From NCBI GenBank assembly GCA_037133395.1, contig JBAXOG010000006.1:1036-65035 (forward strand): DNA of 64,000 nt, given 5' to 3'. Positions 6,079 to 20,938 of the stretch are shown here, one piece after another. The notes under the pieces are model-generated. The model searched no databases. It had not been told where the DNA came from and worked only from the letters and a program-made list of their open reading frames with translations. Each line of letters starts with the position of its first letter. The stretch's first letter is position 1. The position numbers and the translations under genes are program-made. This DNA is from a bacterium. GTDB lineage: Bacteria > Verrucomicrobiota > Kiritimatiellia > RFP12 > UBA1067.

Positions 6079-7038
6079 TTACACGCCGATTCCTTCAAAG
6101 AGCACAGTCGAAAGATAACGCTCGCCAGCATCCGGCAGGATGACCACGATGGTTTTGCCTGCGAAGGCCTCGTCATTGGCCAAGCGCACAGCAGCCGCAG
6201 CGGCCGCACCGGACGAGATGCCGACAAGGATCCCCTCTTCGACAGCCAGTCGGCGTGCGAACGCGACAGCCTCTGCGCTCTCAACCTGTTCCACGCGATC
6301 GATGATGGAAAGATCCAGTGTGTCTGGAATAAAGCCTGCGCCGATACCTTGAATCTTATGCGGACCTGGCTTCAGTTCCAAGCCTGCTAGCTTCTGGCTG
6401 ATGACCGGGCTCTCTTTCGGTTCCACGGCCACAGAGATAATCGCCTTGCCCTTTACGTTCTTGATGAAGCGCGATACCCCGCTGATCGTACCGCCTGTGC
6501 CAACACCGGAAACAAACACATCAATCCCTCCGTCGGTGTCCGCCCAGATCTCAGGTCCGGTGGTTTGTTCGTGAATCGCCGGATTCGCTGGATTTTTAAA
6601 TTGCTGCGGCAGGAAGTAACGTGCGGGATCCGAAGCTGCGAGCTCCTCAGCCCGGCGGATAGCCCCCTTCATGCCTTCAGCACCGGGTGTCAGCACCAGA
6701 GTTGCGCCAAAGGCAGCCAGCACGCGGCGGCGCTCGATGCTCATGGTCTCGGGCATGGTCAGCGTCAGCTTGTACCCGCGCGCAGCAGCCACTGCGGCCA
6801 GCGCGATACCCGTGTTGCCGCTGGTGGGTTCGACGATCTCGACGCCGGGCTTGAGAACCCCGCGCTTCTCCGCGTCCCAGACCATGGCAGAGCCAATACG
6901 GCACTTGACAGAGTAAGCCGGATTGCGGCCTTCGATCTTGGCCAACACAGTTGCCTTCGCGCCCTGCGTGACCTTGTTCAGACGGACCAACGGCGTGTTG
7001 CCGATGGACAGTGCATTGTCAGTGTAGATTTTACTCAT
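6079..7038 (-). CDS. cysK: Cysteine synthase A (O-acetylserine sulfhydrylase)
   Basis: Near-colinear with E. coli CysK as I remember it: [21 protein letters not shown]..., SVKCRIG (PLP lysine), [28 protein letters not shown]. Confidence 0.95.
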
Positions 7039-7070
7039 GTTCTTACTCCTTGTTCACGGTTTAGTCTTCT

Positions 7071-7094
7071 TTGTCTATTGAGATGGTTGACAAT
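7071..7094. promoter_or_regulatory. Candidate Rrf2 operator in the cysK promoter (TTGTCTATTGA; TTGTC-N13-GACAA dyad)
   Basis: Exact 11-mer TTGTCTATTGA at 7071-7081, shared with 23265-23275 and 23344-23354. Lies 33-56 nt upstream of the cysK ATG. Confidence 0.45.
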
Positions 7095-7145
7095 ATAACA
7101 AATGCCCTCGAGAAGCGCAATAATAATTTTTAATAATTCGAAATC

Positions 7146-7244
7146 GCAGGACTGGCCAAGGACTCCAAGACAGAGAGACTCTAAGACTAAAAGGTCTTTG
7201 ATGTCCTTCGTCTTTTTTTGAGTCTTGGCGTCTTCATGTCCTGC
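7146..7244. repeat. Composite palindromic intergenic element whose arms are built from AAGAC/GTCTT-type sub-repeats
   Basis: Outer clamp GCAGGAC...GTCCTGC. Left arm is ...CCAAGGACTCCAAGACAGAGAGACTCTAAGAC. Right arm GTCTTTGATGTCCTTCGTCTTTTTTTGAGTCTTGGCGTCTTC is its imperfect reverse complement. Confidence 0.8.
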
Positions 7245-7403
7245 GCCCTCAATCCAAGCAAGGACAACAGACAAATCTCTCCCCCGAGCGACAGTGTGCT
7301 TGACAGATACCCCGACGCTTCAGGAGATTAATACCCGCCTCATCGCCAATTGCGCAACAACCTGTTGCTCAATTACCTTTGGGTCACGTCTCAAAGTTAC
7401 CCT

Positions 7404-8123
7404 TTACCATTTTTCTGCATGGGAGAGGCCGAAAACCAAGAAGTCTTTGGCATCCTTGGCTAGCTCATTTTTACGCTCCTGCCAGTCTGGCAGGGCCCGG
7501 CCTAATGCTTGCCAGAAGGCGTGGCCATGATTGCGTTCGCGTAAGTGGATCAGCTCATGAAGGATGACATAGTCCACCAGTCGCACGGGAAGCTGGAGGA
7601 TCTTCCAGTTAAAGAAGAGAATGCCTTTCCGACCGCACGAACCCCACCTGAAGCCCAAATCACGGACATCCACGCCTGACGGCTGGCTTCCTGCGAGCCG
7701 GGAGAGTCTTTCAACCCTTCGCCGCAGCCACTCCATGCCTGTCTGGATGTACCAGCGCTGAAAGTGTTCTGCGGGCAATCCGCAATCGCTCTTTAATAAG
7801 AATCGCGTACCGTCGAACAGCAAGGGCGCTTCTTGACGTTTCACCATCTTTAGGCGGAAGCGCCGTCCGAGATAGCAGAATGATTCGCCGGACACGTATT
7901 CGGGTGAGCATATCTTGGGTAATGCCGCTTCTTTGAGCGCTAGTTTCCCGTGCACCCACAGAAGCTTCTTGTGTATCCAGTGGGAGAGTTCCCCGGTGGA
8001 GGTCTCAGTTGGAGCGTAAGCTACCAGCTCGCCGGCACGGCCCACGGTGAGCCCAAGGGTTTTGCGTCGGTCGCTGCGCCGCACCTCGAAGTTTAGGCCA
8101 CCGATTTGGAGTGCGTTGTTCAT
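7404..8123 (-). CDS. DUF45/YgjP-like (WLM/SprT-type) zinc metallohydrolase, last gene of the type I R-M operon
   Basis: HExxH motif in YVILHELIHLRERNHGHAFW. Its start overlaps the hsdR stop (ATGA at 8120-8123). Confidence 0.85.
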   Translation of the reverse strand: MNNALQIGGLNFEVRRSDRRKTLGLTVGRAGELVAYAPTETSTGELSHWIHKKLLWVHGKLALKEAALPKICSPEYVSGESFCYLGRRFRLKMVKRQEAPLLFDGTRFLLKSDCGLPAEHFQRWYIQTGMEWLRRRVERLSRLAGSQPSGVDVRDLGFRWGSCGRKGILFFNWKILQLPVRLVDYVILHELIHLRERNHGHAFWQALGRALPDWQERKNELAKDAKDFLVFGLSHAEKW

Positions 8124-11100
8124 GCGAGGGTTAGATTCTCGTGGTTTTCTTTGGCTAAGGCGACAAGGCGCTGGGCCATGTCGCGTTCGCTACCCGGACT
8201 ACAGAAGCGTGCTTGGTCGAGGTCGCGGACGAGTGTTTTGACCAGAAGTTCGCGCATGTCGGCATTCCGCCAGAACCCGACCTTCCGTATCTCCTGCCGG
8301 ATACGTTCCACCATCTCCAGTGTTGCCAATATGGCCTTGGCGCGTACTTCCGTTGAGAGCACCTGGCCTTTACTGCACTCCTCCAGCACAAGCCGCACGA
8401 AGGGCACTTGCACCTTGGGGTCGAGGTCAGGAAAGTCATTTCGGTCGCCCTGTTTCATGTCATCAATAAACGTGCGCAACTCGCGCTCCAGGGCATCGGC
8501 ATCATCCTTGAACTTCTTGAGAATCTCTTCCAGCCGTTCGCTCATCTTGCGGGCGTAGGAGGGATTTTGATTCGTGAAGCCGATAATGTGGTAGCGTGCG
8601 GCATGTTGCATCTGAGCGGCACGTGCCCGGCTCCCCTCTTGCGCCTTCAGGAGCTCTTCAAACTTTGCGTCGGTGATCGCCACCGGCGGAATCTTGGGGT
8701 CCACACCTCTGGCAGTGATATGGGCATTGATGAGCGCTTTCACCTTTTCGGCCACCCCCAGCAGGTTCAATGCTGGATCGCGATACAGGTTGGCCGCCAC
8801 CTTGTTGATGAAGCCCAGCAGCTTGGCATCGCGAAATACGTCACAGGGCACTTCAGGACGATGTTCCAGCAACCCGAGCGTCTCATAGAACTTACGAACC
8901 TTGTTGATGAAGTCGGCCCGTATCTTCAAATCGCCAAGCAACTGCACACAGTCTTCCACCTGCGCCTGGAGATCCGTCACACCCTTATCCGTAAAGACAG
9001 CAATCGCCCGCGCCCGCCGGTCAAGCAGCAACGGCAGCTCAACGCTAATGTCGATCATTGCGCCCTGAGTGTCTGTCTTGTCGTAGTCGCCCAGCGCTTC
9101 CGTCAGATGAAGGGCCACGCCGATGTAGTCCACCACATACCCGCATTTCTTTGCGCCATGCGTACGGTTTACACGGGCCACGGCCTGTAGCAGATCGTGC
9201 GCGAGGATCTTCCGGTCGAGGTACATCACCTGTTCGACCGGGGCATCAAACCCCGTCAGAAGCATGTTCATCACGACAAGGATGCAGAGCGGATCAGTCT
9301 TGTCGGTCTTTGCAGCGGAAAACTTCCGCTTGAACCGCTTGATGTTCGCTTCCTGTTTCTCCTTTGTTGTCCAATCCCTCCACGGTTCAGGGTCGTTGTG
9401 GTTTCCCGAGAAGATACCCGCGATCTCAAGAACGCGCAGATTCGCGAGTCGTGGATAGACCTTCAGGAGATAGCGGGTCTGGGCATCCAGCTTCAGCACT
9501 TCGTCGTCCGGCAGACACCGCACCGCTTCTGGCAGTGCCTCCAGTTCAGATACCAGTTCCTTCCGCGCCTTCTCCAGCTTTTCAAGATAGGTCACCACAG
9601 CCTGGCGGCTCGTGGCGACCACCTGAGCCTTAAAACCCTCTGGCAGCACCACGTCCGCATAATGCCGGATCATGTCCCTCGCCTTCTGCTCAATCAACAG
9701 GGGTGCTTCCATCACATCGCCTTCGGTGGCGTACTTGGCCTTGATGATGGACAACTCTTCTGGCTTGTAGTCGCGGAACATGTCTTCGAAAACAGCATCG
9801 AGGCTAAGCGCATCCTTCACCATGCCGTCCGCTGTCCGGCTCTCGTAGAGGATCGGCACGGTCGCGCCGTCCAGCTCTGCGTCCTGAAGAAGATATTTGT
9901 CGATGAAGTCGCCAAAGATCTCTTTCGTCTCTTTCTTCTCTTCGCTGATGATCGGCGTGCCCGTGAAGCCGATGACCGCCGCGTTCGGCATCGCCTTGCG
10001 CAAATTCCGGTGCAACGTGCGTGTGTTCGAACGGTGCGCCTCGTCCACGAGCACAAGGATCTCTTCCGAGTCATTCAGCAACGGGAACTCTTCGAACCGG
10101 ATATTTTCCGTGAAAGTGACTTCCTTTGTGACGACCGGCTCGTCCTTTCCAGGCTTCTTCTCTTTTCGGACAATCGTCATGGAGACGCTCTCCAGCGCCT
10201 CTTCGCTGGCGCATGTCAGCAGTCCTTTCACTGGCTTGCCGCCTGTTTCGCCCGAAGGCTGATATTTCTGCAACATCGCCATGACGATGTCGGGCGTCCG
10301 CTCGCCTAAGAGTCGTTGCGTCAGCGCCGTCGGTGATTCACGCGTCTTCAAATCCGTGTCGGTCGGACGTATCGCTTCGCCACTCAACTGCGCGGTCTGT
10401 CCGAGCTGCTCCTGCAGATCCGTACGGTCCGTGACCACCACGATCTTGAAACGGTGCAGGTCCGGGGTCATGCGCATCTTGCGGACCAGGAAGGCCATGC
10501 TGAGGCTCTTGCCCGACCCCTGCGTGTGCCAGATGATGCCCCCGCGCTCGTCGCGCGTGGCTCCGTCCGCAATCGTCCGCCCCTCCTGCAAACGCGCCAC
10601 CGCCTTGTGGATGGCACGGAACTGCTGATAGCGGGCCACCACCTTGCGCGTCTTGCCGTCCACCTGCTGGAAGACCGAGAAGTTCCTAATCAGGTCAATC
10701 AGGTGAGCGGGCCGCAACATGCCCGCAGTCAGGATCTGCTGGCTTTGGAGTGTGCACCCTTTCTGTTGCAACGCCTCTGGAAGCTGTTTATCCCTGCGGA
10801 AGAACAAGGGCGTGCCGGGGCGGTCCCCTTGCTCGGCCCCCAGTGTTCGCAACTCAGCCGCCGCGCTCCGCACGTCCTGAGCTTTGGGCAAGGTGCCCAC
10901 CTCCTCCGCCACGGTGCTCATGGGCACCGGACTGGTGTCCGCCCATTCCAGATAAGCCTCCGGCGGTGCGCCGATGGTGGCGGCACGCGCCTCGAAGAAG
11001 TCGCTGGCGATCAGCAACTGATTGGTGTGGAAGAGCCGCTCCACCCCTTCGCTCTCGGCGTACAGCGTCGGCCAAAGCTCGCGCCGCTGATTCGAGTAGC

Positions 11101-11650
11101 GAAGCAACTGGTTGATGGCCTCCTGCAAGGGACTCTCAATGCCGGGGCTCTTGAACTCCGCCACCGCTAGGGGGATGCCGTTGACAAAGAGCACCGCATC
11201 GGGAATGATGTGTCCGCGTCCGCTGGCCAGTTCTACCTTGAACTGGTTCATGACCAGAAAATCATTATTGGCGGGATTCTCAAAATCGATATAGTTGACA
11301 GGCTGAGGCCGTCCGTGTTCCCACTCCGGAAGACCATCCGTCACCGTGCCCTTGAGCAAGAGCGTCGTGGCCGACTGGTTCACCTCCATGAGCCGATGCC
11401 CCTCGGCCCGCTCCAGGTCCCGGATGGCGCGGCTGATGCGCGCGCTGTCCAACCACGCCTCGCCATCCCGCAGATTGAGCCGACGCAACGCCGCTTCCAA
11501 CCGCCCCTTCAGCAAGACCTCCCGGAAGCTCTCGCGCTCAGTCAACTCCGGCACATCGACATCGCCCTCTATCCACTGCCAGCCCATCGCCCGGAGTTGC
11601 TCGCAGAAAGGTTTTTCAACGAGGTCATATTCCCATTGGATCTTGCTCAT
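8120..11650 (-). CDS. hsdR: Type I restriction endonuclease subunit R
   Basis: 1176 aa. SF2 helicase motifs WHTQGSGKSLSM (motif I) and LVLVDEAHRS (DEAH). Typical HsdR N-terminus MSKIQWEYDLVEKPFCEQLRAMGWQW. Operon context with hsdM/hsdS. Confidence 0.95.
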   Translation of the reverse strand: MSKIQWEYDLVEKPFCEQLRAMGWQWIEGDVDVPELTERESFREVLLKGRLEAALRRLNLRDGEAWLDSARISRAIRDLERAEGHRLMEVNQSATTLLLKGTVTDGLPEWEHGRPQPVNYIDFENPANNDFLVMNQFKVELASGRGHIIPDAVLFVNGIPLAVAEFKSPGIESPLQEAINQLLRYSNQRRELWPTLYAESEGVERLFHTNQLLIASDFFEARAATIGAPPEAYLEWADTSPVPMSTVAEEVGTLPKAQDVRSAAAELRTLGAEQGDRPGTPLFFRRDKQLPEALQQKGCTLQSQQILTAGMLRPAHLIDLIRNFSVFQQVDGKTRKVVARYQQFRAIHKAVARLQEGRTIADGATRDERGGIIWHTQGSGKSLSMAFLVRKMRMTPDLHRFKIVVVTDRTDLQEQLGQTAQLSGEAIRPTDTDLKTRESPTALTQRLLGERTPDIVMAMLQKYQPSGETGGKPVKGLLTCASEEALESVSMTIVRKEKKPGKDEPVVTKEVTFTENIRFEEFPLLNDSEEILVLVDEAHRSNTRTLHRNLRKAMPNAAVIGFTGTPIISEEKKETKEIFGDFIDKYLLQDAELDGATVPILYESRTADGMVKDALSLDAVFEDMFRDYKPEELSIIKAKYATEGDVMEAPLLIEQKARDMIRHYADVVLPEGFKAQVVATSRQAVVTYLEKLEKARKELVSELEALPEAVRCLPDDEVLKLDAQTRYLLKVYPRLANLRVLEIAGIFSGNHNDPEPWRDWTTKEKQEANIKRFKRKFSAAKTDKTDPLCILVVMNMLLTGFDAPVEQVMYLDRKILAHDLLQAVARVNRTHGAKKCGYVVDYIGVALHLTEALGDYDKTDTQGAMIDISVELPLLLDRRARAIAVFTDKGVTDLQAQVEDCVQLLGDLKIRADFINKVRKFYETLGLLEHRPEVPCDVFRDAKLLGFINKVAANLYRDPALNLLGVAEKVKALINAHITARGVDPKIPPVAITDAKFEELLKAQEGSRARAAQMQHAARYHIIGFTNQNPSYARKMSERLEEILKKFKDDADALERELRTFIDDMKQGDRNDFPDLDPKVQVPFVRLVLEECSKGQVLSTEVRAKAILATLEMVERIRQEIRKVGFWRNADMRELLVKTLVRDLDQARFCSPGSERDMAQRLVALAKENHENLTLA

Positions 11651-13923
11651 ACCTTCACCCTTGCTTCTGCATTTTTGACCTTGCTCTTTTCCAGATCAGA
11701 GTCTTCAAGTATTCTAACCCACCAGTGGGGCAACTTGAGCTCAACATTACAAAGTTTCTTGCAGTTTGCAGGGAAATCTCGAAGTGAACCAACGGCGCGT
11801 GGATTTAACGGTTGAGCGGTTGCCGCATTCCATAGCGCACCTACGATTTCGGCTTCACTCAGTACTTTGATAACTCGCAGTGCATCACATTCAGGCGACG
11901 ACTCTTTTTTGAGCAGATAATTAAACCAAGCTATCAGCTCATATGCGTTCTGACGAATAACTGAGACAGTAGAAGACTCTTCCAATGTCCTTAACATCTC
12001 CTTGCGCAAATCACACCACAATGGCCCATTACAATCAAGGACGATTTGTTTAGCAGGATATGTAGCCCTTGTAAATGAGCGGAATTCGGTTTTTTTAAAC
12101 TGCTCGAGAACTTCTGCTGCATAACGCGGCACCATTAACTTCGACATCATTTTATAAAGATCTTTTATCTCTTCTCTTTCTATATCATGCTTGTATGAAG
12201 AAAAGGGCTCAATAATTTCTACTAATGGAGCTACAGGGCTTTGCCACTTGTCAACAAGATGACACAAGAAGTCTGTTTCCTTTTGCCTAGCAGCAACGTA
12301 AGCAGATGTGTTAGTAAAGTGCAAATATCTTTTGAAAGAGTCTAGGACTAGTTCAAAATCAGAAGCCAACAACTCATAACTGTGCTCGTCTATAGTGCGA
12401 AGGTCAAATGCTAACACCTCAAGAATCTTTAACAAATCATCAGCTACGGACAATTCTACTGTCATCCCATCTTCATCTATGGTTTCCGCTGCGCGATTTA
12501 AACTTTCTTCACGCGCAAGAACAGTAGTCTGGAATAAGGCTCTGTATACTCCTCTGGCCGACTGCCCCACCTTATCGGCATGCGCCTTTATCCAAACATC
12601 GAAAGCGTTTGCACTTGGTTTCTCCCGATGTATGGTGAAAAAACTATCATATTCCTTTAAAGTCACCGCAGCTGGAGCTTCTGCAAGACGCATCTGATAC
12701 ATCAATTTCTCATCGTCAATTCCTATCCATGCGCTAACATGCTCTGACAGCATAAGCAGAACAGAACCGATTTGTTCTTGCTCCTTTTCCGTTAATTCTA
12801 ACTCACAATCTTTTTTGACTTTTTGAATATGTGTTTTGATCAGTTCGCCCGCTTCGTTGTTATCAGCGGCATATACTGTTTTTATCCTGATATTGTCCCA
12901 TAGGTCTCTGTCTTCCAGAAGGGCAGGAGCAAGTCGTGGAAATCGTATTTTAATAACGTTTGCCGCTAGAATAATAGGCCAATTAACTTCATCTGCCCTA
13001 TGACGTTCGACTTGAATCTTCATTAACGAAAGCAAGCGAACAAACTGACGGACAGAACGCGCATTCTGAGGTAAATAGGGTATCACAGAGGCAAGCACAT
13101 TTATTGGCACGTAAGGACAATGAAGTGACACATCCGACTCAGCCATGTGTAGAAGATCATCCTTTGAGACGGCTGGAAGCCATCTTGGGTAGTCGATAAT
13201 TTTTTCAAGAAACTTGAGACCGTCATCAAAGCCTTCATGTTCTTTTGCAAGAATTTTACCAACAACAACAGGGTCAAAGGCGCAGATAAATACGATGCCA
13301 CCACAATTCATAATTTCTTTGATGGCATATAGCATCTCGGGTACGATCTTGCTACTCGTTCGATCAAGATCGTCGACTAGAATAATTAATCGGCCTTTTT
13401 CGTATTTCTGCAGGATTCCCTTTAGATCAGCCTCTTTTGAATAAAGAACTCCTTTGAGCAAATCAAGGCCAAGCAATGCAACACCCGCTTTTTTACTTTC
13501 TGCTACCGCATTGATGTCTTCACTATGCGCTAAGAGCCACTCAGATATGGGTGCCGCTCTTTTCTTTAAGCATTTCTTCCAAGACTGTTTCGTGTCTACT
13601 GCTTCAGCAGGAATTTTTTCAATCACAGCCTGCACGAATGCATGCCAAAGACTTTTCCTCTCGCTATATTCCCACGGATTGAAGCGAACAACAATGTGAC
13701 CGTGACTTTCAGCCAACGTGGCTATCATATTCAATACAGATGTCTTACCAGTTCCCCATTCGCCATATATCCCGATTCGCACAGGCCACTCTTTTGGTCC
13801 TGTAGTCGCTATGCCATAGATTTCGGAGGCAAACGCCCAGCGGTTCAACTTGTCCTCTTTCCGCTGAGACACAGCAGCATCAAAACCTCCCCCCCGAATA
13901 TCTATATCATTTTTTGTGGACAT
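11647..13923 (-). CDS. KAP-family P-loop NTPase embedded between hsdS and hsdR
   Basis: Walker A IYGEWGTGKTS and Walker B RLIILVDDLDR in KAP-like spacing. No obvious TM insert. The C-terminal ~450 aa are unassigned. ATGA overlap with hsdR and 1-nt gap to hsdS. Visibly AT-rich relative to neighbours. Confidence 0.85.
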   Translation of the reverse strand: MSTKNDIDIRGGGFDAAVSQRKEDKLNRWAFASEIYGIATTGPKEWPVRIGIYGEWGTGKTSVLNMIATLAESHGHIVVRFNPWEYSERKSLWHAFVQAVIEKIPAEAVDTKQSWKKCLKKRAAPISEWLLAHSEDINAVAESKKAGVALLGLDLLKGVLYSKEADLKGILQKYEKGRLIILVDDLDRTSSKIVPEMLYAIKEIMNCGGIVFICAFDPVVVGKILAKEHEGFDDGLKFLEKIIDYPRWLPAVSKDDLLHMAESDVSLHCPYVPINVLASVIPYLPQNARSVRQFVRLLSLMKIQVERHRADEVNWPIILAANVIKIRFPRLAPALLEDRDLWDNIRIKTVYAADNNEAGELIKTHIQKVKKDCELELTEKEQEQIGSVLLMLSEHVSAWIGIDDEKLMYQMRLAEAPAAVTLKEYDSFFTIHREKPSANAFDVWIKAHADKVGQSARGVYRALFQTTVLAREESLNRAAETIDEDGMTVELSVADDLLKILEVLAFDLRTIDEHSYELLASDFELVLDSFKRYLHFTNTSAYVAARQKETDFLCHLVDKWQSPVAPLVEIIEPFSSYKHDIEREEIKDLYKMMSKLMVPRYAAEVLEQFKKTEFRSFTRATYPAKQIVLDCNGPLWCDLRKEMLRTLEESSTVSVIRQNAYELIAWFNYLLKKESSPECDALRVIKVLSEAEIVGALWNAATAQPLNPRAVGSLRDFPANCKKLCNVELKLPHWWVRILEDSDLEKSKVKNAEARVKV

Positions 13924-13924
13924 A

Positions 13925-15193
13925 TCAGTTACTCCGCGTTATTTCCGACACCCGCACTCGACCCGTTAGCAAATCGTCCATCAGGCCGGACTTCATGAGG
14001 TTAAGTTTTGCGAGATTCGCTTCCTCTTGAAGGATAACTGAATCTGCTTGCTTCATTCGAGACACAACCAAAGCCTGTTCCTCTTTTTGCGGAAAACCAA
14101 ACTGCAAGTGAGAAAGCAATTTAGTGTTGAGGTTCACCATTGTTGTCCCCACTGCACGCGCGGCGATCTGACGTTGGCCTGTATCATGCCGATACGCAAG
14201 TGAGAGCCATTTAGACGAAAGGGTGTGTTCCTCAAAACGCATCAACAAGCAACCTGTTCCGCACAACCACCCAACTTCGCGTTCCGTAATCGCGGCACAA
14301 CGGGACAGGTCACCCCGTCGGGCAAAAATGAGGTCTCCTAATTTGACACGATGCCGTATTAGTTCGTCCGCTCTTGTAGATGGGATACGGGCTATTTTTT
14401 CGACACTGACAGACCCGCCGAGAACATCTTGAGGCATGATTACGGGCACACCTTCCGCCGTATACTCGTGCGCATGAAGCTGGCTGCCAAACGGCCCCGT
14501 TTGAATAGTCCCCTTGATTCTTTGAAGCCGTTCCCCCATCGACTCGAAAATCCACTCCTTCGGTATCCGTCCCAGCGGTGAATCTTGGAATTGTTCAGGA
14601 TGGGCGATGGGGTCGCGGAGGTGGCCGTGTTCATCGAGGCCGCAGGTGAGAAGGTCGTGAAGCAACCCGGCGCGCACCTGCCTCAGTTTCTCAATCACCG
14701 ACTCAGTCTTCGTAATCGTCTCGTCAATCGTGTCCAGCACTGCTGCGATGCGAGGATTGGATTCGTCAAACCATGGAATCGCCATACCTTCCACGTCTAT
14801 CCGACTAATAGCAACGAAAGTAGAACCTTGTGCCACGCGGGCGAGTGTTGGTGCCGAATATTTTATAGCATGCCACGCGAAACCTTGCTGGTCAGTATCA
14901 AAACGAATAGCTGATAGACCACGTCCAATAATCGTACGCTCTTTTGCCTGATTGAGTTCTCCGACTGGAGCACGTACACTTAACAACATATCGCCCGCTT
15001 CGGCGATGCGTGTAGGGGAAGTGCAACGAAGTCGTGGTAAAGGGTTTCGACATCGAAACTCAGCATTGCCTTGAATAAAGGGTAAGCCGTCGTTGTTCTC
15101 CGAACAAGCAGAGGAAGATGGTGACTGCCCCATGAGGACTTTTGCTTTCTCAGCTATATGAACTGTTCCTGCTTGTTTCATTGATAAACCCAA
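13925..15193 (-). CDS. hsdS: Type I restriction-modification specificity subunit S (two target-recognition domains)
   Basis: 422 aa. Conserved-region helices ...IEKLRQVRAGLLHDLLTCG... and ...LAKLNLMKSGLMDDLLTGRVRV are typical of HsdS central and C-terminal coiled-coil repeats. Confidence 0.9.
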   Translation of the reverse strand: MGLSMKQAGTVHIAEKAKVLMGQSPSSSACSENNDGLPFIQGNAEFRCRNPLPRLRCTSPTRIAEAGDMLLSVRAPVGELNQAKERTIIGRGLSAIRFDTDQQGFAWHAIKYSAPTLARVAQGSTFVAISRIDVEGMAIPWFDESNPRIAAVLDTIDETITKTESVIEKLRQVRAGLLHDLLTCGLDEHGHLRDPIAHPEQFQDSPLGRIPKEWIFESMGERLQRIKGTIQTGPFGSQLHAHEYTAEGVPVIMPQDVLGGSVSVEKIARIPSTRADELIRHRVKLGDLIFARRGDLSRCAAITEREVGWLCGTGCLLMRFEEHTLSSKWLSLAYRHDTGQRQIAARAVGTTMVNLNTKLLSHLQFGFPQKEEQALVVSRMKQADSVILQEEANLAKLNLMKSGLMDDLLTGRVRVSEITRSN

Positions 15194-15234
15194 ATCATGG
15201 TGAATTCATGGATAATGATTCCAGTTAAATGAAA

Positions 15235-15534
15235 TCACTTCAGCACCTCCCAGTGTCCGCCTTTGTCCGGGCCGATGCGGTGGAGGATATTTTCTGCCTT
15301 CAGTTTTCGGATATGCCACTCGATACCTTTGCGTGTGATTCCCAATTGAGACGCCATTTCGTCGGTGGAAATGTTCGCCGAAGCACAAACCAAGCCCAAA
15401 ATTTTTTCCCTAGTTTTCTCCCTAGCTTCTTGGGTAGTGTTCACCATATTTTCCAGAGGCGTTTTTGATGAGCCAATTGGCGAACCTATTGATGAACTTT
15501 TCCCCAGCGTTTTCATGGGCGTTTCTGCCGACAT
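15235..15534 (-). CDS. Small stand-alone winged-HTH protein, paralogous to the C-terminus of the upstream AlbA_2 protein (possible gene remnant)
   Basis: ISTDEMASQLGITRKGIEWHIRKLKAENILHRIGPDKGGHWEVLK aligns with IPELAEQLCMTTRGIEKHIVQLRDARQLLRIGGRKLGHWEVLK in the 515-aa protein. I trimmed the 197-aa track ORF to Met99 because its N-terminal part reads through a 27-bp inverted-repeat element. Confidence 0.45.
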   Translation of the reverse strand: MSAETPMKTLGKSSSIGSPIGSSKTPLENMVNTTQEAREKTREKILGLVCASANISTDEMASQLGITRKGIEWHIRKLKAENILHRIGPDKGGHWEVLK

Positions 15535-15607
15535 GCCTTTGCCTGTAACTTCAAAGTACGGAACCACATAATCCACAAAAAAATCAAAAAATGCTAATTC
15601 CCCTCTG

Positions 15608-15695
15608 CGGCTCACCGAGACGGTTCGCCCTACCCGCTTCGCACGGGGCATCTGCCTGATCCGAAGGAGGTAGGGCGAACCGTCTCGGTGAGCCG
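15608..15695. repeat. Palindromic element with perfect 27-bp inverted arms and a 34-nt loop
   Basis: CGGCTCACCGAGACGGTTCGCCCTACC (15608-15634) is the exact reverse complement of 15669-15695. Lies between the AlbA_2 gene stop and the orphan wHTH. Confidence 0.9.
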
Positions 15696-15824
15696 TAGTG
15701 TGTTTCGTGCATTTCAGATGCAAAAAAGTTACTCCTTCGTTTTCTCCAGCTCGGCTGGCGAGGCGCTTGTTCTGATGCCCCTCGCACACGGTCACAGCAA
15801 AAATGCCCCCCTCAATAGATGAAC

Positions 15825-17372
15825 TCACTTCAGCACCTCCCAGTGGCCAAGTTTTCGCCCACCTATTCGGAGAAGCTGTCTTGCATCCCTCAGTTGAACA
15901 ATATGCTTCTCAATGCCACGAGTCGTCATACACAACTGCTCAGCAAGTTCGGGAATAGTCATTTCCCGTTGGGTCGCCAACAGAGTAAGGATCTTTTCAC
16001 CCGTCTTTACCGAACTTTCTTTACCGAACTTCTTTACCGAACTTTTCACCCTAGTCTTTACCGAACTTTTCACCCTAGTTTTTACCGAAATGTCAGGCGA
16101 AAGGTTTTTTTCTTTAGTGCTTTCCTGGGCAGTATTTTCAGGGGTTTCTTGGGTAGTTTGCCCCTTTTTCTTTACCGAAGTTTCTGTCCTAGGTTTCACC
16201 GAAGTTTTTGTCCTAGTCTTTACCGAACTTTCAGGTGTTTCTCTAAGCGTTTCTTTAGGCGTTTCTTTGAGCGTTTCTTGGGTAGTCGCCTCACCCTCGG
16301 CAAAGGAGGGTCGGTTGAAGGAGATGATAAAGAGGTTGCCGACTTCACGGAAGATCACATCCGGAACATGTTTCAGAATCAAAGGCATGCCGCGCCCCCA
16401 GGCTTCGACCATCTCGATCCGGCGGAACAAGTCGGCAATCAACGGATTGCGCCGTTGCGAGACATATCCCTTGCGCAAGTCGTCGATCGTGATCAAACCG
16501 TACAGGCGTCCTGGACTCCTGATCTCGACGCGATCTTTGAAAACAGCCACCTGGACATAGTCAGAGTCGCAATAGTCGCGATGGCAAAAGGCATTGATAA
16601 TGGCCTCGCGCAACGCCTCGACCGGGATCTCCGGCACATCCACGCGATAGAGTCCTTCGAGCCGCATGCCGATATGAATATTCTTGAGGATGTACTTCTG
16701 GGCTTCTTCGATGAGTTCAAGAATGTCGCCGTCAAAATCGTGGCGGTCTAAGATCATGGCACTCTCTTGCGTGCCGAACACGGCGCAGCGCAACTGCATC
16801 GGAGCCGTTCGATCAAAGAACAGGGTCGCGGCGTTCAGCAAATGTCCGTTCTTGAGCAATCCCAGTTTCTTAAGCGCATTGACGGGATCATCCCACGTCA
16901 GACGGGCCCGTTCGACAAAGGCTCGCAACTTGACTTCATCCAAATCAGAGACCTTCTTGTCTGAGATTGCGCTGTCCCACGCATGTTGACCCTGATTCTT
17001 CGCGACGATCAGCCGTTCGAGTTCCCGTGCGCTGAGCTGGCGGTCTTCGTCCGCCACGCGCATATAGGCCCGTCCGTAGGCGTAATAGGGTGTCTCGGTT
17101 CCCTCGAACGTCACCTTGATGCAGACCGCCTGATCGACCGTCTCCGCCGTAATCTTGGGATAGATGCGAGGCTCGATGTGTGCTGCGATAGCCTGCGAGA
17201 TGTCGCGCAGGGTCTTGGCAGAGGCTGGCAGCCCGACGACTTGTCCGTTGTCCTTGATGCCAAACCAGAGTTCGCCTCTGCCATGCTTGTTCAGGATGGC
17301 TGAGATTGAGACCAGCCCGGCATGGAGTTCAGCGAGGCTTTTCTTAAGTTCGACTGTTTCGGATTCTTTCAT
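15825..17372 (-). CDS. AlbA_2 (Schlafen-type 'divergent AAA') + HATPase_c_4-like + low-complexity linker + winged-HTH protein
   Basis: N-terminus MKESETVELKKSL...GELWFGIKDNGQVVGL (AlbA_2 signature). EALREAIINAFCHRDY...RVEIRSPGRL (HATPase_c_4-like). C-terminal wHTH. ATGA overlap with the hsdM stop. Confidence 0.8.
   Translation of the reverse strand: MKESETVELKKSLAELHAGLVSISAILNKHGRGELWFGIKDNGQVVGLPASAKTLRDISQAIAAHIEPRIYPKITAETVDQAVCIKVTFEGTETPYYAYGRAYMRVADEDRQLSARELERLIVAKNQGQHAWDSAISDKKVSDLDEVKLRAFVERARLTWDDPVNALKKLGLLKNGHLLNAATLFFDRTAPMQLRCAVFGTQESAMILDRHDFDGDILELIEEAQKYILKNIHIGMRLEGLYRVDVPEIPVEALREAIINAFCHRDYCDSDYVQVAVFKDRVEIRSPGRLYGLITIDDLRKGYVSQRRNPLIADLFRRIEMVEAWGRGMPLILKHVPDVIFREVGNLFIISFNRPSFAEGEATTQETLKETPKETLRETPESSVKTRTKTSVKPRTETSVKKKGQTTQETPENTAQESTKEKNLSPDISVKTRVKSSVKTRVKSSVKKFGKESSVKTGEKILTLLATQREMTIPELAEQLCMTTRGIEKHIVQLRDARQLLRIGGRKLGHWEVLK
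16005..16285. repeat. Intragenic tandem repeats encoding the K/S/T/V/E-rich linker of the AlbA_2 protein
   Basis: Perfect 24-bp tandem CTTTACCGAACTTTTCACCCTAGT at 16032-16055 and 16056-16079, plus degenerate copies either side. Encodes ...SVKTRVKSSVKTRVKSSVKK... and ETLKETPKETLRETP... Confidence 0.85.
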
Positions 17373-20107: not shown

Positions 20108-20391
20108 AAGGTTCTCATTCTATAAAGAGGGAAATTATTAATCACCCATGAATGGGAACTATTATGCTTTTGGGCGTGCAAATAGTCAACTCCTATCTTG
20201 ATCGGCTTCGAGGGTTGAAAAGCGCATCCGGCAATGGCGCTGTCGTGGAAGCGCGGGGATCGGCAATCCTCAAAAAAAGGCGCTCTTTCGCGTGTCGCTT
20301 TCATTACTTGAGATACAGCTTCTTCAAAAGCAAGGTGTATGCTTGGCCATAGTTGATACAACGAACTCCATGCACGTCAGGCCTTATCAAT

Positions 20392-20458
20392 TTGTCAGCA
20401 TTGGGAAGACCGCTGACAACTAGCGCAAAATTCAAGTAGAATCTTAAGATTGCGCTAG
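20392..20458 (-). terminator. Two tandem hairpins downstream of the Rrf2 operon
   Basis: TTGTCAGC-N12-GCTGACAA (20392-20419) and CTAGCGCAA-N21-TTGCGCTAG (20420-20458), 35-100 nt after the Rrf2 stop. No strong U-tract. Confidence 0.4.
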
Positions 20459-20492
20459 ATTAACCTCGTTTGGGAAAAGACAAAGCTTTCGC

Positions 20493-20936
20493 TTAAATCG
20501 TATAATTCAAGCTGTCGATGGCTTCCGCTTCACGGTGACGGGCAAGCAGGTCTTCCAGGGTGATCCCGGCAAGCACATCTGCAATTTTGTTTTCTAATTC
20601 GACCCAGGCTTTATGGGTGATCAGGTAAACGCTGTTTCGATTTTTAGCTTCAACCTTTTGATCCGCAACAAAGGTCACAGACCCTTCCAGCACGTTGACA
20701 ATATCGCGGATGCTAACCTCCGAGGGCTTACGCGCCAATACGTATCCGCCTTGTGAACCGCGCTTTACGCGCAAGATTCCTGCGGCGGTCAGCGGGGTGA
20801 CAACATGCCACAGATAGGGCTGCGAAATTCCTTGGCGTGCGGCAATGTCACTCAAGGTCACCGGACCCTGATGCTGATGCAGTGCCACTTCCAACAAGAG
20901 TCGCAATGCGTACCGTCCTTTTGTAGTGATTTTCAT
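20493..20936 (-). CDS. Rrf2-family transcriptional regulator (CymR/IscR-like)
   Basis: MKITTKGRYALRLLLEVALH...LSDIAARQGISQPYLWHVVTPLTAAGILRVKRGSQGGYVLAR is the canonical Rrf2 wHTH. No obvious 3-Cys cluster. Last gene of an operon with two Cys/Met PLP enzymes. Confidence 0.9.
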   Translation of the reverse strand: MKITTKGRYALRLLLEVALHQHQGPVTLSDIAARQGISQPYLWHVVTPLTAAGILRVKRGSQGGYVLARKPSEVSIRDIVNVLEGSVTFVADQKVEAKNRNSVYLITHKAWVELENKIADVLAGITLEDLLARHREAEAIDSLNYTI

Positions 20937-20938
20937 TT

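What the first reader, a model, noticed from the sequence alone, without database searches (positions are those of the whole stretch)
11647..13923. KAP-family P-loop NTPase wedged between hsdS and hsdR, the slot occupied by the PrrC anticodon nuclease in EcoprrI
Seen: a 758-aa ORF with Walker A GEWGTGKTS and Walker B LIILVDDLD in a KAP-like layout. The C-terminal ~450 aa have no motif I recognise. Its stop overlaps the hsdR start (ATGA, 11647-11650) and its start is 1 nt from the hsdS stop, so it is translationally embedded in the R-M operon. It is nevertheless far more AT-rich than hsdR. My hand counts give 26/60 G+C at 12001-12060 versus 43/60 at 10501-10560, so it looks like a compositionally foreign cassette.

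Established: in the E. coli type Ic locus EcoprrI, prrC sits in this same position (hsdM-hsdS-prrC-hsdR). It is held latent by the R-M complex and is unleashed when phage T4 Stp inhibits restriction.

Inference: this KAP NTPase may be an analogous R-M-guarded abortive-infection effector of an uncharacterised kind.
Basis: partly seen in the sequence, partly recalled or inferred. Interest (0 to 1): 0.78.

Follow-up and report, generated by a model that had tools for sequence, protein, structure and literature searches.

The report
KAP NTPase cargo in restriction operon
A gene for a soluble ATPase-type protein of the KAP family sits, translationally coupled, between two subunit genes of a type I restriction-modification operon; it is most likely one more self-contained anti-phage gene riding in a known cargo slot of such operons, not a proven PrrC-like guard of the restriction enzyme.

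Summary
There is a 758-aa ORF at 11647-13923 (- strand) with the stated Walker A and B motifs. It starts 1 nt after the hsdS stop and its stop overlaps the hsdR start (ATGA). Its GC3 is 0.39, against 0.70-0.75 in hsdM and hsdR.

The protein is a soluble KAP-family P-loop NTPase. Its nearest characterised relative is F-plasmid PifA, and only the N-terminal ~260 aa align. Residues ~262-757 fold confidently as an all-alpha, solenoid-like module. That module matches no nuclease, pore or other enzyme. It defines a large unnamed family (569 clusters at E<=1e-10), seen here mostly in Verrucomicrobiota and relatives.

Family members are repeatedly and tightly embedded in methylation-based restriction systems: type I, type III, type IIG, DISARM-like, BREX and Hma. 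They also occur alone, and the type-I-linked copies are polyphyletic. In sister loci of the same type I family, the hsdS-hsdR slot is empty or holds unrelated defence genes (DRT1, SoFic, PD-T7-3, GmrSD, PrrC-related PDC-S06).

Verdict: very probably an embedded, self-contained anti-phage gene of the recently validated class "KAP NTPase plus unknown C-terminus". A PrrC-style latent guard remains possible but is not favoured. It is a new member of a known kind, of moderate interest.

The parts
11647..13923 (-). KAP-family P-loop NTPase gene (758 aa), the feature under study
   Evidence: ORF and translation. Pfam PF07693 E 4.6e-32. An identical protein (P0001) occurs on 6 metagenome contigs with the same neighbours.
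13837..13887 (-). Conserved N-terminal motif (residues 13-29, GFDAAV...D..LNRW) ahead of the P-loop, shared with PifA
   Evidence: G13, D15, D24, R28 and W29 are invariant in 50 family members. The motif aligns with PifA GLDAAVEDVPEDRYGF.
13738..13764 (-). Walker A motif GEWGTGKTS (residues 54-62)
   Evidence: Translation. G54, W56, G57, G59 and K60 are invariant.
13363..13389 (-). Walker B motif LIILVDDLD (residues 179-187)
   Evidence: Translation. D184, D185, L186, D187 and R188 are invariant.
13153..13785 (-). KAP NTPase core (residues 47-257) with a 110-125-aa helical insert between Walker A and Walker B that lacks a transmembrane segment
   Evidence: Pfam match. The highest Kyte-Doolittle 19-residue mean in the insert is 0.88 for this protein and 0.52-1.48 across the family. 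The insert has low pLDDT, 45-62.
11653..13140 (-). Family-specific C-terminal all-alpha module (residues 262-757). The first ~70-110 residues are probably the NTPase helical lid; the rest is a solenoid-like region of unknown function.
   Evidence: AF2 on this segment gives pLDDT 88.8 and predicts helices only, apart from two single-residue bridges. The best Foldseek PDB hit has E 0.07 and TM 0.17, to armadillo/HEAT proteins. The profile finds 738 clusters at E<=1e-3; where the listed proteins are full length (~750 aa), the module sits at ~255-750. It is absent from 105 more distant KAP ORFs.
13925..15193 (-). hsdS (422 aa), ending 1 nt before the KAP start
   Evidence: Pfam Methylase_S and PADLOC Specificity_I over residues 11-416. 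Junction.
8120..11650 (-). hsdR (1176 aa), whose start overlaps the KAP stop by 4 nt (ATGA)
   Evidence: HSDR_N, SWI2_SNF2 and T1R_D3 domains; TIGR00348. Junction.
17369..20107 (-). hsdM (912 aa), first gene of the operon
   Evidence: HsdM_N + N6_Mtase; PADLOC MTase_I E 1e-257.
15825..17372 (-). Second embedded cargo: Schlafen AlbA_2 + HATPase_c_4 + HTH protein (515 aa), overlapping hsdM and the next gene
   Evidence: Pfam. Homologues sit directly upstream of hsdR in sister loci L166, L178, L180, L184, L185 and L199.
15235..15828 (-). Winged-HTH ORF (197 aa) between the Schlafen gene and hsdS
   Evidence: Pfam HTH_24 at residues 137-181. A strong hairpin lies inside its 5' third, so the true start is uncertain.
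7404..8123 (-). YgjP-like metallopeptidase gene overlapping the end of hsdR; conserved last gene of this type I family
   Evidence: Pfam PF01863 E 9e-48. It follows hsdR in most sister loci and in the P0016 locus.
20161..20189 (-). Sigma-70-like promoter candidate upstream of hsdM (TTGACT-17-CATAAT, 10/12)
   Evidence: Consensus scan. This is a pattern match only.

Best explanation
The gene encodes a self-contained, single-polypeptide anti-phage protein of the class [quoted passage not shown]. PifA of plasmid F is the classical example, and the Enterococcus and gut-metagenome KAP proteins are the recently tested ones.

It was acquired horizontally as cargo in the hsdS-hsdR slot of a widely transferred type I R-M operon. 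It is co-transcribed and translationally coupled with hsdS and hsdR, so it is made whenever the restriction enzyme is made. It travels with the operon and provides a second, mechanistically different layer of defence.

Proposed working, step by step:
- Shown: residues ~13-260 form the N-terminal KAP NTPase, with intact and invariant Walker A and B motifs.
- Inferred: residues up to about 330-375 form the NTPase helical lid.
- Inferred: the NTPase acts as an NTP-driven switch.
- Inferred: the family-specific alpha-solenoid (residues ~376-757) is the surface that recognises a phage-derived or infection-derived cue.
- Inferred: cue binding changes nucleotide turnover and/or oligomeric state, as in ring-forming relatives such as RdrA. 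This state blocks phage growth.
- Inferred, by analogy with PifA and Tmn: because no nuclease, protease, pore or membrane segment is recognisable, the output is most likely NTP-consuming or assembly-based. It could also be direct inactivation of a phage component. Enzymatic cleavage of nucleic acid is unlikely.

The protein does not need HsdMSR for its activity.
For: (1) Identity.
- Pfam KAP_NTPase E 4.6e-32.
- The best PADLOC hit is PifA at E 2.9e-25.
- hhalign of the family profile against F-plasmid PifA gives 98.7% probability and E 2.7e-16 over residues 9-260, including a shared N-terminal G[FL]DAAV motif.
- The best structural neighbours are the RADAR RdrA rings, then Orc1/Cdc6.

(2) A conserved full-length family.
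- More than 120 homologues of about 750 aa cover 95-99% of the query.
- 50 aligned members share invariant Walker residues plus invariant C-terminal residues R289, R296, R307, E312, W315, E415, P417, T421, E424, N659 and W698.
- The C-terminal profile finds 569 clusters at E<=1e-10; the full-length proteins among the best 150 keep one architecture.

(3) Guilt by embedding.
- Members sit inside or abutting: type I (window; P0016; P0002/L233); BREX (L081); DISARM-like SNF2 + DrmMI (L001, L005, L020, L023, L082, L150); type IIG (L016, L019); Hma (L097); type III (L100); and GmrSD (L003).
- Spacing is usually a 4-nt overlap or a 1-nt spacer.
- Among 104 immediate neighbours, the commonest Pfam family is the Eco57I methylase (7), followed by ResIII, N6_Mtase and GmrSD.
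- The same count on 104 neighbours of more distant KAP genes gives integrases and recombinases, with only one N6_Mtase.

(4) The slot is a defence-cargo hotspot.
- In loci whose HsdR is 64-87% identical, the hsdS-hsdR interval is empty in about 10 and holds variable cargo in about 16.
- All ten cargo proteins tested match PADLOC defence families, nine of them over about 85% or more of the model: Drt1a (E 0), SoFic, PD-T7-3 (two loci), PDC-S39 (two loci), PDC-S05, PDC-S06, PDC-M07A and PDC-S28. Pfam adds GmrSD and Fic.

(5) Autonomy.
- Solitary copies exist (L079, L080, L102, L013, L010).
- There is no conserved partner gene.
- Type-I-linked copies are polyphyletic, and the window protein is closer (44%) to a DISARM-linked copy than to the P0016 type-I copy (38%).

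(6) Mobility.
- KAP GC3 is below that of its neighbours in 26 of 30 loci, with a mean difference of -0.11.

(7) Precedent.
- KAP NTPases with unknown C-terminal regions protect E. faecalis from phages, and both Walker B and the C-terminal region are required (PMC13552941, read).
- Embedded genes in type I, BREX, DISARM and Hma systems are mostly defence genes (bioRxiv 10.1101/2024.01.29.577857).
Against: - There is no experimental evidence for this family. The host is an uncultured bacterium known only from metagenome assemblies.
- No effector activity can be named. The C-terminal module has no structural or sequence neighbour, so the output step is pure inference.
- The tested KAP defence proteins (EF_KAP and the gut ORFs) and PifA share only the NTPase half with this family. 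The C-terminal profile finds nothing in 105 more distant KAP ORFs, and PifA aligns only to residue 260.
- The strong, class-spanning association with methyltransferase-based systems is more specific than ordinary defence-island clustering. It could reflect a functional dependence that this explanation denies.
- My gene calls in the related loci come from a simple longest-ORF rule.
- The NJ tree has no support values.
Confidence: 0.58

Rival explanations
1. PrrC-like guard, the first reader's model, in its narrow or broadened form. The KAP protein is kept latent by contact with the restriction or methyltransferase complex encoded around it, or it monitors a feature common to methylation-based systems. 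It is unleashed as an abortive-infection effector when a phage neutralises restriction, for example with a DNA mimic, an Stp-like peptide or a SAM-degrading enzyme.
For: - The gene occupies exactly the prrC position and is translationally coupled on both sides.
- The closest homologue (60% identity) keeps the same hsdS-TGAnATG-KAP junction although the hsdS target-recognition domain differs.
- A third copy sits in hsdM-hsdS-KAP-hsdR-ygjP.
- Every host system found (type I, III, IIG, DISARM-like, BREX, Hma) uses a SAM-dependent DNA methyltransferase.
- This association is specific to the family when compared with other KAP genes.
- A PrrC-related ABC ATPase occupies the same slot in sister locus L168.
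- PrrC and PARIS are precedents for anti-restriction-triggered effectors (text read).
Against: - Partner systems belong to at least six unrelated classes with different subunit structures, so a conserved physical contact is hard to picture.
- Solitary copies exist in housekeeping or IS contexts.
- Type-I-linked copies are polyphyletic.
- None of about 26 sister type I loci carrying both hsdS and hsdR has a KAP gene. Their cargo matches PADLOC defence families unrelated to one another, which from my own knowledge act on their own when cloned.
- No nuclease or other killing domain is recognisable.
- PrrC itself is almost exclusive to type I loci, unlike this family.
Confidence: 0.17
2. Accessory or regulatory factor of restriction systems, not a defence effector in its own right. 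An NTP-driven assembly/disassembly or quality-control factor tunes restriction complexes. It might, for example, limit self-restriction after acquisition or remodel stalled translocating enzymes. [quoted passage not shown]
For: - The gene is tightly co-expressed with restriction subunits in many system classes.
- The C-terminal alpha-solenoid looks like a protein-interaction scaffold, not an enzyme.
- The 2004 proposal is quoted in PMC13552941 and in bioRxiv 10.1101/2022.08.21.504612.
Against: - Most loci of the same type I family work without it: the slot is empty or holds other cargo.
- Solitary copies exist.
- Hosts are too diverse for one accessory role.
- KAP proteins tested so far act as defences by themselves.
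Confidence: 0.1
3. Selfish passenger with a non-defence role. It could be an addiction or maintenance function of a mobile cassette, or a decaying insertion that is merely tolerated in the operon.
For: - GC3 is 0.39 against 0.70-0.75 in the flanking hsd genes.
- GC3 is lower than in the neighbours in 26 of 30 family loci.
- One copy lies next to an IS transposase.
Against: - The ORF is intact and all family-invariant residues are kept.
- The identical gene is present in 6 independent assemblies.
- No recombinase or transposase accompanies it in the window or in most loci.
- The family is large and keeps one architecture, which argues for selection on function.
Confidence: 0.05

Closest known systems
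PifA of plasmid F (phage T7 exclusion; PADLOC/DefenseFinder 'Pif')
   Same: - It is the best defence-library hit (PADLOC PifA E 2.9e-25).
- The KAP NTPase half is homologous, including the G[FL]DAAV motif before the P-loop (28% identity over 271 aa; hhalign 98.7%).
- It has almost the same length (741 against 758 aa).
- There is no clear transmembrane segment in the Walker A-B insert of either protein.
- Both are single-polypeptide proteins.
   Different: - The C-terminal ~480 aa are not alignable.
- pifA is paired with the repressor gene pifC on a plasmid, not embedded in an R-M operon.
- PifA's triggers (T7 gp1.2 and gp10) and its membrane-leakage phenotype are known from the literature (cited) and cannot be transferred to this protein.
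[quoted passage not shown]
   Same: - The domain logic is the same: a KAP NTPase plus a large C-terminal region with no known fold.
- They are single-gene anti-phage activities that need Walker B and the C-terminal region.
   Different: - EF_KAP has transmembrane helices, and this protein has none.
- Those genes were found next to small serine recombinases. Recombinases and integrases are the typical neighbours of the distant KAPs sampled here, whereas this family sits in restriction operons.
- The C-terminal module of this family was not found in any of 105 distant KAP ORFs.
- I did not compare directly with the published sequences.
PrrC anticodon nuclease in EcoprrI (hsdM-hsdS-prrC-hsdR)
   Same: - Same position in a type I operon.
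- It is a P-loop NTPase with an extra C-terminal region.
- It is embedded cargo.
- A PrrC-related protein (PDC-S06/AAA_13) occupies the same slot in sister locus L168.
   Different: - PrrC is an ABC-type ATPase with a C-terminal anticodon-nuclease domain. This protein is KAP-type, with no AAA_13 or PrrC hit and no nuclease fold.
- PrrC is almost exclusive to type I loci. This family is spread over six system classes and solitary sites.
RdrA of the RADAR system
   Same: It is the best structural neighbour of the full-length model (8hr8, 8fnu; E about 1e-4): a large ATPase with a helical C-terminal part that forms heptameric rings.
   Different: - Global TM-score is only about 0.3.
- No RdrB deaminase gene lies nearby in any locus.
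- There is no sequence-level match.
QatA (QatABCD) and Tmn
   Same: They are KAP or KAP-like P-loop NTPases used in phage defence. QatA models hit the first ~100 residues.
   Different: - The NCBIfam QatA score is 65 against a cutoff of 600, and there are no qatBCD neighbours.
- Tmn is a membrane protein with transmembrane helices in the NTPase. This protein is soluble.
Embedded defence cargo of R-M, BREX, DISARM and Hma systems ('guilt by embedding'; PADLOC PDC/HEC candidates; TgvAB in Vibrio cholerae type I R-M)
   Same: - The genetic arrangement and the host systems are the same.
- PADLOC candidate PDC-S20 shares the P-loop N-terminus.
   Different: No PADLOC v2.0.0 model covers this protein beyond about residue 260, so the family is not among the listed candidates.

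Membership tests
KAP family P-loop NTPase (Pfam PF07693) | Match to the family profile above the curated threshold | tested here: met
   111.9 bits against a cutoff of 20, E 4.6e-32, residues 47-257.
KAP family P-loop NTPase (Pfam PF07693) | Walker A and Walker B separated by a long insert | tested here: met
   GEWGTGKTS at 54-62 and LIILVDDLD at 179-187. The insert is 110-125 aa across the family.
KAP family P-loop NTPase (Pfam PF07693) | Transmembrane helices inserted in the NTPase domain (present in many but not all KAP proteins) | tested here: not met
   The highest Kyte-Doolittle 19-residue mean in the insert is 0.88 (family range 0.52-1.48). The only window above 1.6 is the buried strand after Walker B. 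This is a hydropathy scan, not a dedicated TM predictor.
PifA (Pif system) | Full-length similarity to PifA | tested here: not met
   PADLOC PifA matches profile positions 6-264 of 720 only. hhalign aligns residues 9-260 only.
PifA (Pif system) | Adjacent pifC-type repressor gene | tested here: not met
   pifC lies next to pifA in F. The window neighbours are hsdS and hsdR.
PrrC/RloC anticodon nucleases | ABC-type ATPase head (Pfam AAA_13 / PADLOC PrrC) | tested here: not met
   No AAA_13 or PrrC hit for the window protein. By contrast, cargo in sister locus L168 gives AAA_13 at E 2e-111.
PrrC/RloC anticodon nucleases | C-terminal nuclease domain | tested here: not met
   The confident all-alpha model has no Foldseek hit better than E 0.07, and no nuclease is among the hits.
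PrrC/RloC anticodon nucleases | Location between hsdS and hsdR of a type I operon | tested here: met
PrrC/RloC anticodon nucleases | Latency imposed by the R-M complex and activation by an anti-restriction factor | not testable with these tools
   This needs genetics or biochemistry. The indirect evidence (promiscuous hosts, solitary copies) argues against it.
QatA (QatABCD) | Score above the NCBIfam equivalog cutoff, and qatBCD neighbours | tested here: not met
   65.3 bits against a cutoff of 600. No QueC or TatD neighbours.
RdrA (RADAR) | Adjacent RdrB adenosine deaminase, and close structural match | tested here: not met
   TM about 0.3 only. No deaminase partner is conserved. A dCMP-deaminase-family gene lies two genes downstream in L081 only.
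Embedded defence cargo (guilt-by-embedding criterion of Payne et al.) | Gene nested between core genes of a known multi-gene defence system, recurring in several systems, and neither mobilome nor housekeeping | tested here: met
   It is nested in type I (window) and in DISARM-like SNF2-KAP-DrmMI (L005, L020). It is appended with overlap to Hma, BREX, type III and type IIG systems.
Embedded defence cargo (guilt-by-embedding criterion of Payne et al.) | Demonstrated anti-phage activity | not testable with these tools

The most novel reading that the evidence does not exclude
The family is a general back-up sensor for methylation-based immunity. Its alpha-solenoid would detect what phages use against all SAM-dependent restriction systems, such as DNA-mimic inhibitors of the Ocr/ArdA type, SAM depletion by phage SAM lyases, or loss of the methyltransferase itself. 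The KAP NTPase would then convert that signal into growth arrest.

This would explain why one protein family is wired by translational coupling into type I, type III, type IIG, DISARM-like, BREX and Hma operons. It would be a PrrC-like logic carried out by an unrelated fold with no recognisable nuclease.
Probability: 0.12. Interest if true: 0.8.

Novelty: new member of a known kind. Interest (0 to 1): 0.4.

Why it matters
The finding adds a sizeable, unnamed protein family to the list of candidate anti-phage genes. The family has 569 clusters at E<=1e-10, and in the genomes sampled here it occurs mainly in Verrucomicrobiota, Lentisphaerota and Kiritimatiellia. These phyla have almost no experimental phage biology, and current defence libraries recognise only the NTPase half of the protein.

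It also documents a well-behaved natural cargo slot. One type I R-M family has spread across many phyla, and its hsdS-hsdR interval is either empty or filled with interchangeable defence genes. That makes the slot a practical hunting ground for new systems.

Finally, the family is unusually faithful to methyltransferase-based restriction systems of six different classes. This gives a concrete, testable question: is embedding only co-transfer and co-expression, or does it reflect sensing of anti-restriction?

Tried and rejected
- **Nuclease or pore effector in the C-terminus: rejected.**
  - No Pfam, NCBIfam or PADLOC hit lies beyond about residue 260.
  - There is no PDB sequence hit.
  - Foldseek on a separate, confident model of residues 262-757 gives only armadillo/HEAT-like noise, with best E 0.07 and TM 0.17.
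- **Membrane-inserted KAP: rejected** by hydropathy.
- **Conserved partner gene (two-gene system): rejected.** Clustering of the +/-4 neighbours finds only the host-system genes recurring.
- **Membership of Pif, Qat, RADAR or PrrC: rejected** (see the membership rows).
- **Presence on plasmids or in phages: not found.**
  - tblastn against 72,556 plasmids finds only NTPase-half matches, none covering 80% of the query.
  - tblastn against 50,697 phage records finds nothing.
  - The BFVD fold search returns only generic ATPases.
- **Strict linkage to type I R-M: rejected**.
- **L021 as a type-I-embedded case: downgraded.** Its upstream partial gene is not hsdS, and hsdR lies 3.2 kb downstream, so it counts only as adjacent.
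- **Enrichment test with phmmer queries taken from the family's own loci.** It gave 14/36 against 7/82. It is biased by construction, so I replaced it with the unbiased Pfam neighbour counts.
- **RNA element in the operon.** No Rfam family reaches threshold at 7000-20600.
- **The 2004 KAP family paper (PMC416466)** is not held in the library, so its content is cited only as quoted by others.

Full report
**1. The observation**

The window has an ATG-initiated ORF of 758 codons on the minus strand at 11647-13923. Its translation carries YGEWGTGKTS (residues 53-62) and RLIILVDDLDRT (178-189).

Read on the coding strand, the upstream junction is ...GAG TAA C**TGA**t**ATG** TCC.... The hsdS stop is at 13927-13925, one spacer base follows at 13924, and the start is at 13923-13921. 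The downstream junction is ...AAG GT**ATGA**GC..., so the stop (11649-11647) and the hsdR start (11650-11648) overlap by 4 nt (raw bases).

Over whole genes:

| Gene | GC3 |
|---|---|
| KAP | 0.39 |
| hsdS | 0.49 |
| winged-HTH ORF | 0.54 |
| Schlafen-like gene | 0.61 |
| hsdM | 0.70 |
| hsdR | 0.745 |
| flanking housekeeping genes | 0.65-0.67 |

**2. The operon**

All genes from 20107 down to 7404 are on the minus strand. All overlap or abut except the winged-HTH ORF and hsdS, which are 41 nt apart:

| Gene | Coordinates | Size and domains |
|---|---|---|
| hsdM | 17369-20107 | 912 aa |
| Schlafen-like | 15825-17372 | 515 aa; AlbA_2 + HATPase_c_4 + HTH |
| winged-HTH ORF | 15235-15828 | 197 aa |
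| hsdS | 13925-15193 | 422 aa |
| KAP | 11647-13923 | 758 aa |
| hsdR | 8120-11650 | 1176 aa; HSDR_N, SWI2_SNF2, T1R_D3 |
| YgjP-like metallopeptidase | 7404-8123 | 239 aa |

A sigma-70-like site lies upstream of hsdM at 20189-20161. This is a pattern match only. No convincing minus-strand terminator interrupts the operon.

The island sits between an Rrf2 regulator plus a Cys/Met-metabolism PLP enzyme (20493-22081) and a PALP (cysteine-synthase-type) gene (6079-7038).

The identical KAP protein, with the same neighbours, occurs on six assembled contigs from several samples. The arrangement is therefore not an assembly artefact.

**3. The protein**

*NTPase half.*
- Pfam KAP_NTPase matches residues 47-257 (E 4.6e-32).
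- In defence libraries the best hit is PifA (E 2.9e-25), followed by QatA and PDC-S20. All of these cover only the N-terminal part. NCBIfam QatA is far below its cutoff.
- I took pifA from plasmid F (NC_002483, 42445-44670, next to pifC). The family profile aligns to it with 98.7% probability, but only over residues 9-260. That stretch includes a shared G[FL]DAAV motif ahead of the P-loop.
- The Walker A-B insert (110-125 aa) has no transmembrane-grade hydrophobic stretch in any of 47 family members. Unlike classical KAP proteins, Tmn or EF_KAP, this protein is soluble.

*Predicted structure.*
- AlphaFold2 with a 50-sequence alignment gives pLDDT 86 and pTM 0.77. Everything after about residue 254 is helical.
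- The best PDB neighbours of the whole model are the heptameric RADAR ATPase RdrA (E about 1e-4, TM about 0.3), then Orc1/Cdc6-type ATPases.
- A separate model of residues 262-757 (pLDDT 88.8) has no significant neighbour. The best hits are beta-catenin, importins and FANCI at E>=0.07 and TM<0.2.
- The viral structure library adds only generic ATPases.

The C-terminal region is thus an alpha-solenoid-like module of unknown function. It is not a recognisable nuclease, protease, pore or membrane domain.

**4. The family**

- A sequence search returns more than 120 proteins of about 750 aa at 33-60% identity over 95-99% of the query. All come from metagenomes or MAGs.
- Fifty aligned members share invariant Walker residues and a set of invariant C-terminal residues: R289, R296, R307, E312, W315, E415, P417, T421, E424, N659 and W698.
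- A profile of the C-terminal module alone finds 738 clusters (representatives at 50% identity) at E<=1e-3, and 569 at E<=1e-10.
- Among the best 150, the full-length proteins (~750 aa) carry the module at positions ~255-750; the shorter hits are fragments.
- In species-representative genomes the full-length family occurs in Verrucomicrobiota, Lentisphaerota and Kiritimatiellia, with one Ignavibacteriales MAG.
- No full-length member is in PLSDB plasmids or in GenBank phage records.

**5. Genomic context of the family**

I combined precomputed Pfam annotation with Pfam and PADLOC scans of neighbours.

| Host context | Loci and gene order |
|---|---|
| Type I R-M | window; P0016 (hsdM-hsdS-KAP-hsdR-ygjP); P0002/L233 (hsdS-TGAcATG-KAP) |
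| Near type I genes | L083 (KAP then hsdM); L021 (hsdR-ygjP 3.2 kb downstream; its upstream gene is not hsdS) |
| DISARM-like (SNF2 helicase +/- PLD plus Eco57I-type methylase, PADLOC DrmMI at E=0) | KAP after the methylase in L001, L023, L082 (two paralogues) and L150; KAP between helicase and methylase in L005 and L020 |
| Type IIG | L016, L019 |
| BREX | L081 (PglX-...-PglZ-BrxL-KAP) |
| Hma | L097 (DUF1156 methylase-PDDEXK-DUF499-KAP) |
| Type III | L100 (mod-res-KAP) |
| Type IV | L003 (KAP-GmrSD/Schlafen) |
| Solitary, in housekeeping or IS surroundings | L079, L080, L102, L013, L010, L085 |

- Junctions with the host genes are typically 4-nt overlaps or 1-nt spacers.
- No small partner gene recurs.
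- As an unbiased control, I scanned 104 immediate neighbours of the family and 104 immediate neighbours of more distant KAP genes against Pfam.
  - The family's list is led by Eco57I methylase (7), ResIII (3), N6_Mtase (2) and GmrSD (2).
  - The control list is led by phage integrase (7), IMS (4) and resolvase/recombinase (3), with a single N6_Mtase.
  - Embedding in methyltransferase-based restriction systems is therefore a property of this family, not of KAP genes in general.
- An earlier phmmer-based comparison (14/36 against 7/82) points the same way. It is biased, because its queries came from the family's own loci.

**6. The slot**

HsdR of the window has relatives at 64-87% identity in Verrucomicrobiota, Acidobacteriota, Omnitrophota, Desulfobacterota, Bacteroidota and other phyla, so this type I family is widely transferred. 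The canonical order is hsdM-hsdS-hsdR-ygjP.

- In about 10 loci hsdS is followed directly by hsdR.
- In about 16 loci the interval holds variable cargo.
- None of the sister loci has a KAP gene.

All ten cargo proteins I tested match a PADLOC family, nine of them over about 85% or more of the model:

| Cargo family | Locus |
|---|---|
| Drt1a (E=0) | L170 |
| SoFic | L210 |
| PD-T7-3 | L178, L184 |
| PDC-S39 | L166, L203 |
| PDC-S05 | L187 |
| PDC-M07A | L169 |
| PDC-S28 | L178 |
| PDC-S06 (AAA_13 ABC ATPase with a secondary PrrC hit) | L168 |

Pfam adds GmrSD (L183, L188) and Fic (L181). Homologues of the window's Schlafen-like gene often sit directly before hsdR.

This shows two things.
- The slot is a genuine defence-cargo hotspot, which supports a defence role for the KAP gene.
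- It also hosts families unrelated to one another and to KAP. From my own knowledge, DRT1, SoFic and PD-T7-3 work on their own when cloned. Occupying the prrC position therefore says little about functional coupling to HsdMSR.

**7. History**

- In a neighbour-joining tree of full-length members, type-I-linked copies fall in at least three places: window+P0002, P0016+L083, and L021. They are interleaved with DISARM-like, BREX, Hma and solitary copies.
- The window protein is 59% identical to P0002. Its next closest relative, at 44%, is a DISARM-linked copy. It is 38% identical to the type-I copy P0016. The tree has no support values.
- KAP GC3 is lower than that of its neighbours in 26 of 30 loci, by as much as 0.51.

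Both results indicate frequent movement between hosts and contexts.

**8. Mechanism**

*Shown.*
- An intact and conserved KAP NTPase.
- A conserved, family-specific alpha-helical C-terminal module.
- Translational coupling into the operon.
- Recurrent embedding in restriction systems.
- No partner gene.
- No recognisable catalytic effector.

*Established elsewhere.*
- PifA excludes T7 (cited).
- KAP NTPases with unknown C-terminal regions protect E. faecalis, and this requires Walker B and the C-terminal region (PMC13552941).
- Genes embedded in type I, BREX, DISARM and Hma systems are mostly defence genes, and PrrC is the case of a guard (bioRxiv 10.1101/2024.01.29.577857).
- TgvAB is an independent type IV system inside a type I operon (PMC11411939).

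*Inferred.* The protein is an autonomous NTP-driven sensor-switch. Its solenoid recognises an infection cue, and its output is assembly-based or NTP-consuming, not nucleolytic.

| Explanation | My estimate |
|---|---|
| Autonomous embedded defence gene | about 0.58 |
| PrrC-like or broader "guard of methylation-based immunity" | about 0.17 |
| Accessory factor of restriction systems | about 0.10 |
| Non-defence passenger | about 0.05 |

The remainder is unassigned.

**9. Comparison and novelty**

The protein works like, and is partly homologous to, PifA. It fits the newly defined class of KAP NTPases fused to unknown C-terminal regions, and it fits the guilt-by-embedding pattern. It is not a member of the Pif, Qat, RADAR or PrrC families (see the membership rows).

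I found no paper describing this family or KAP genes between hsdS and hsdR. PADLOC v2.0.0, NCBIfam 20 and Pfam recognise only its NTPase half.

I therefore rate it a new member of a known kind. It is a good candidate for experiment, and its fidelity to methyltransferase-based systems is interesting. It is not a surprise to a specialist.

Noticed in passing
window 15605-15698 (- strand transcript), inside the ORF at 15235-15828: A 26-nt perfect inverted repeat (46-nt arms at 85% complementarity, 2-nt gap) folds as an RNA hairpin of -79.4 kcal/mol, z-score -12. It lies in the 5' third of the 197-aa winged-HTH ORF, whose HTH domain is at residues 137-181. It occurs once in the window, has no Rfam match, and among the fetched loci is found only in the copy of this same locus. 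It may be a regulatory or attenuator element between the Schlafen gene and hsdS, and the annotated ORF start may be wrong.
   Followed up: partly
window 15825-17372 (- strand); repeats at 15993-16279: A second embedded cargo gene encodes Schlafen AlbA_2 + HATPase_c_4 + C-terminal HTH (515 aa). It contains 24-nt and 12-nt tandem repeats that encode a low-complexity linker (…SVKTRVKSSVKTRVKSSVKK…). Homologues sit immediately upstream of hsdR in six sister loci. Prokaryotic Schlafen proteins were recently reported as anti-phage defences (PMC13552941).
   Followed up: partly
sister loci L164-L229 (hsdS-hsdR interval), e.g. L170:4619-8395, L168:7704-10001, L210:7959-9152: One widely transferred type I R-M family (HsdR 64-87% identical across many phyla) has an hsdS-hsdR interval that is either empty or filled with interchangeable defence genes: DRT type 1, PDC-S06 (PrrC-related), SoFic, PD-T7-3, PDC-S39, PDC-S05, PDC-M07A, PDC-S28, GmrSD and Fic. 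Several cargo ORFs (e.g. L188:7229-8182, L190, L210:7057-7974) were not scanned and may be new candidates.
   Followed up: partly
window 7404-8123 and the sister loci: A YgjP-like (PF01863) metallopeptidase gene overlaps the end of hsdR here. It follows hsdR in most sister loci and in the P0016 locus. It behaves like a conserved fourth gene of this type I family, and no PADLOC or NCBIfam model matches it.
   Followed up: no
window 6079-7038 and 20493-22081; inverted repeat at 7209-7230 / 20261-20282: The 12.7-kb R-M island separates a cysteine-synthase-type PALP gene from an Rrf2 regulator plus a Cys/Met-metabolism PLP enzyme. These genes would plausibly be neighbours without the island. A 22-nt inverted repeat (82% complementary) lies in both flanking intergenic regions, but a few pairs of that quality are expected by chance in 13.8 kb.
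   Followed up: partly
L082 10001-12223 and 14907-17123: Two paralogous full-length KAP genes of this family lie 2.7 kb apart, downstream of a DISARM-like PLD-SNF2 / NYN / DrmMI cluster. They are separated by four small unknown ORFs.
   Followed up: no
window 17369-20107: HsdM is unusually long (912 aa; 868-958 aa in sister loci). It has about 300 aa beyond the N6_Mtase domain, a region covered only by PADLOC MTase_I models and by no Pfam domain.
   Followed up: no
L001 8931-9494: The small gene two genes upstream of the KAP gene in the DISARM-like locus L001 matches PADLOC candidate PDC-M04B (E 5e-39). An EVE-domain gene lies between it and KAP. Several embedded candidates are thus stacked in one host system.
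   Followed up: no
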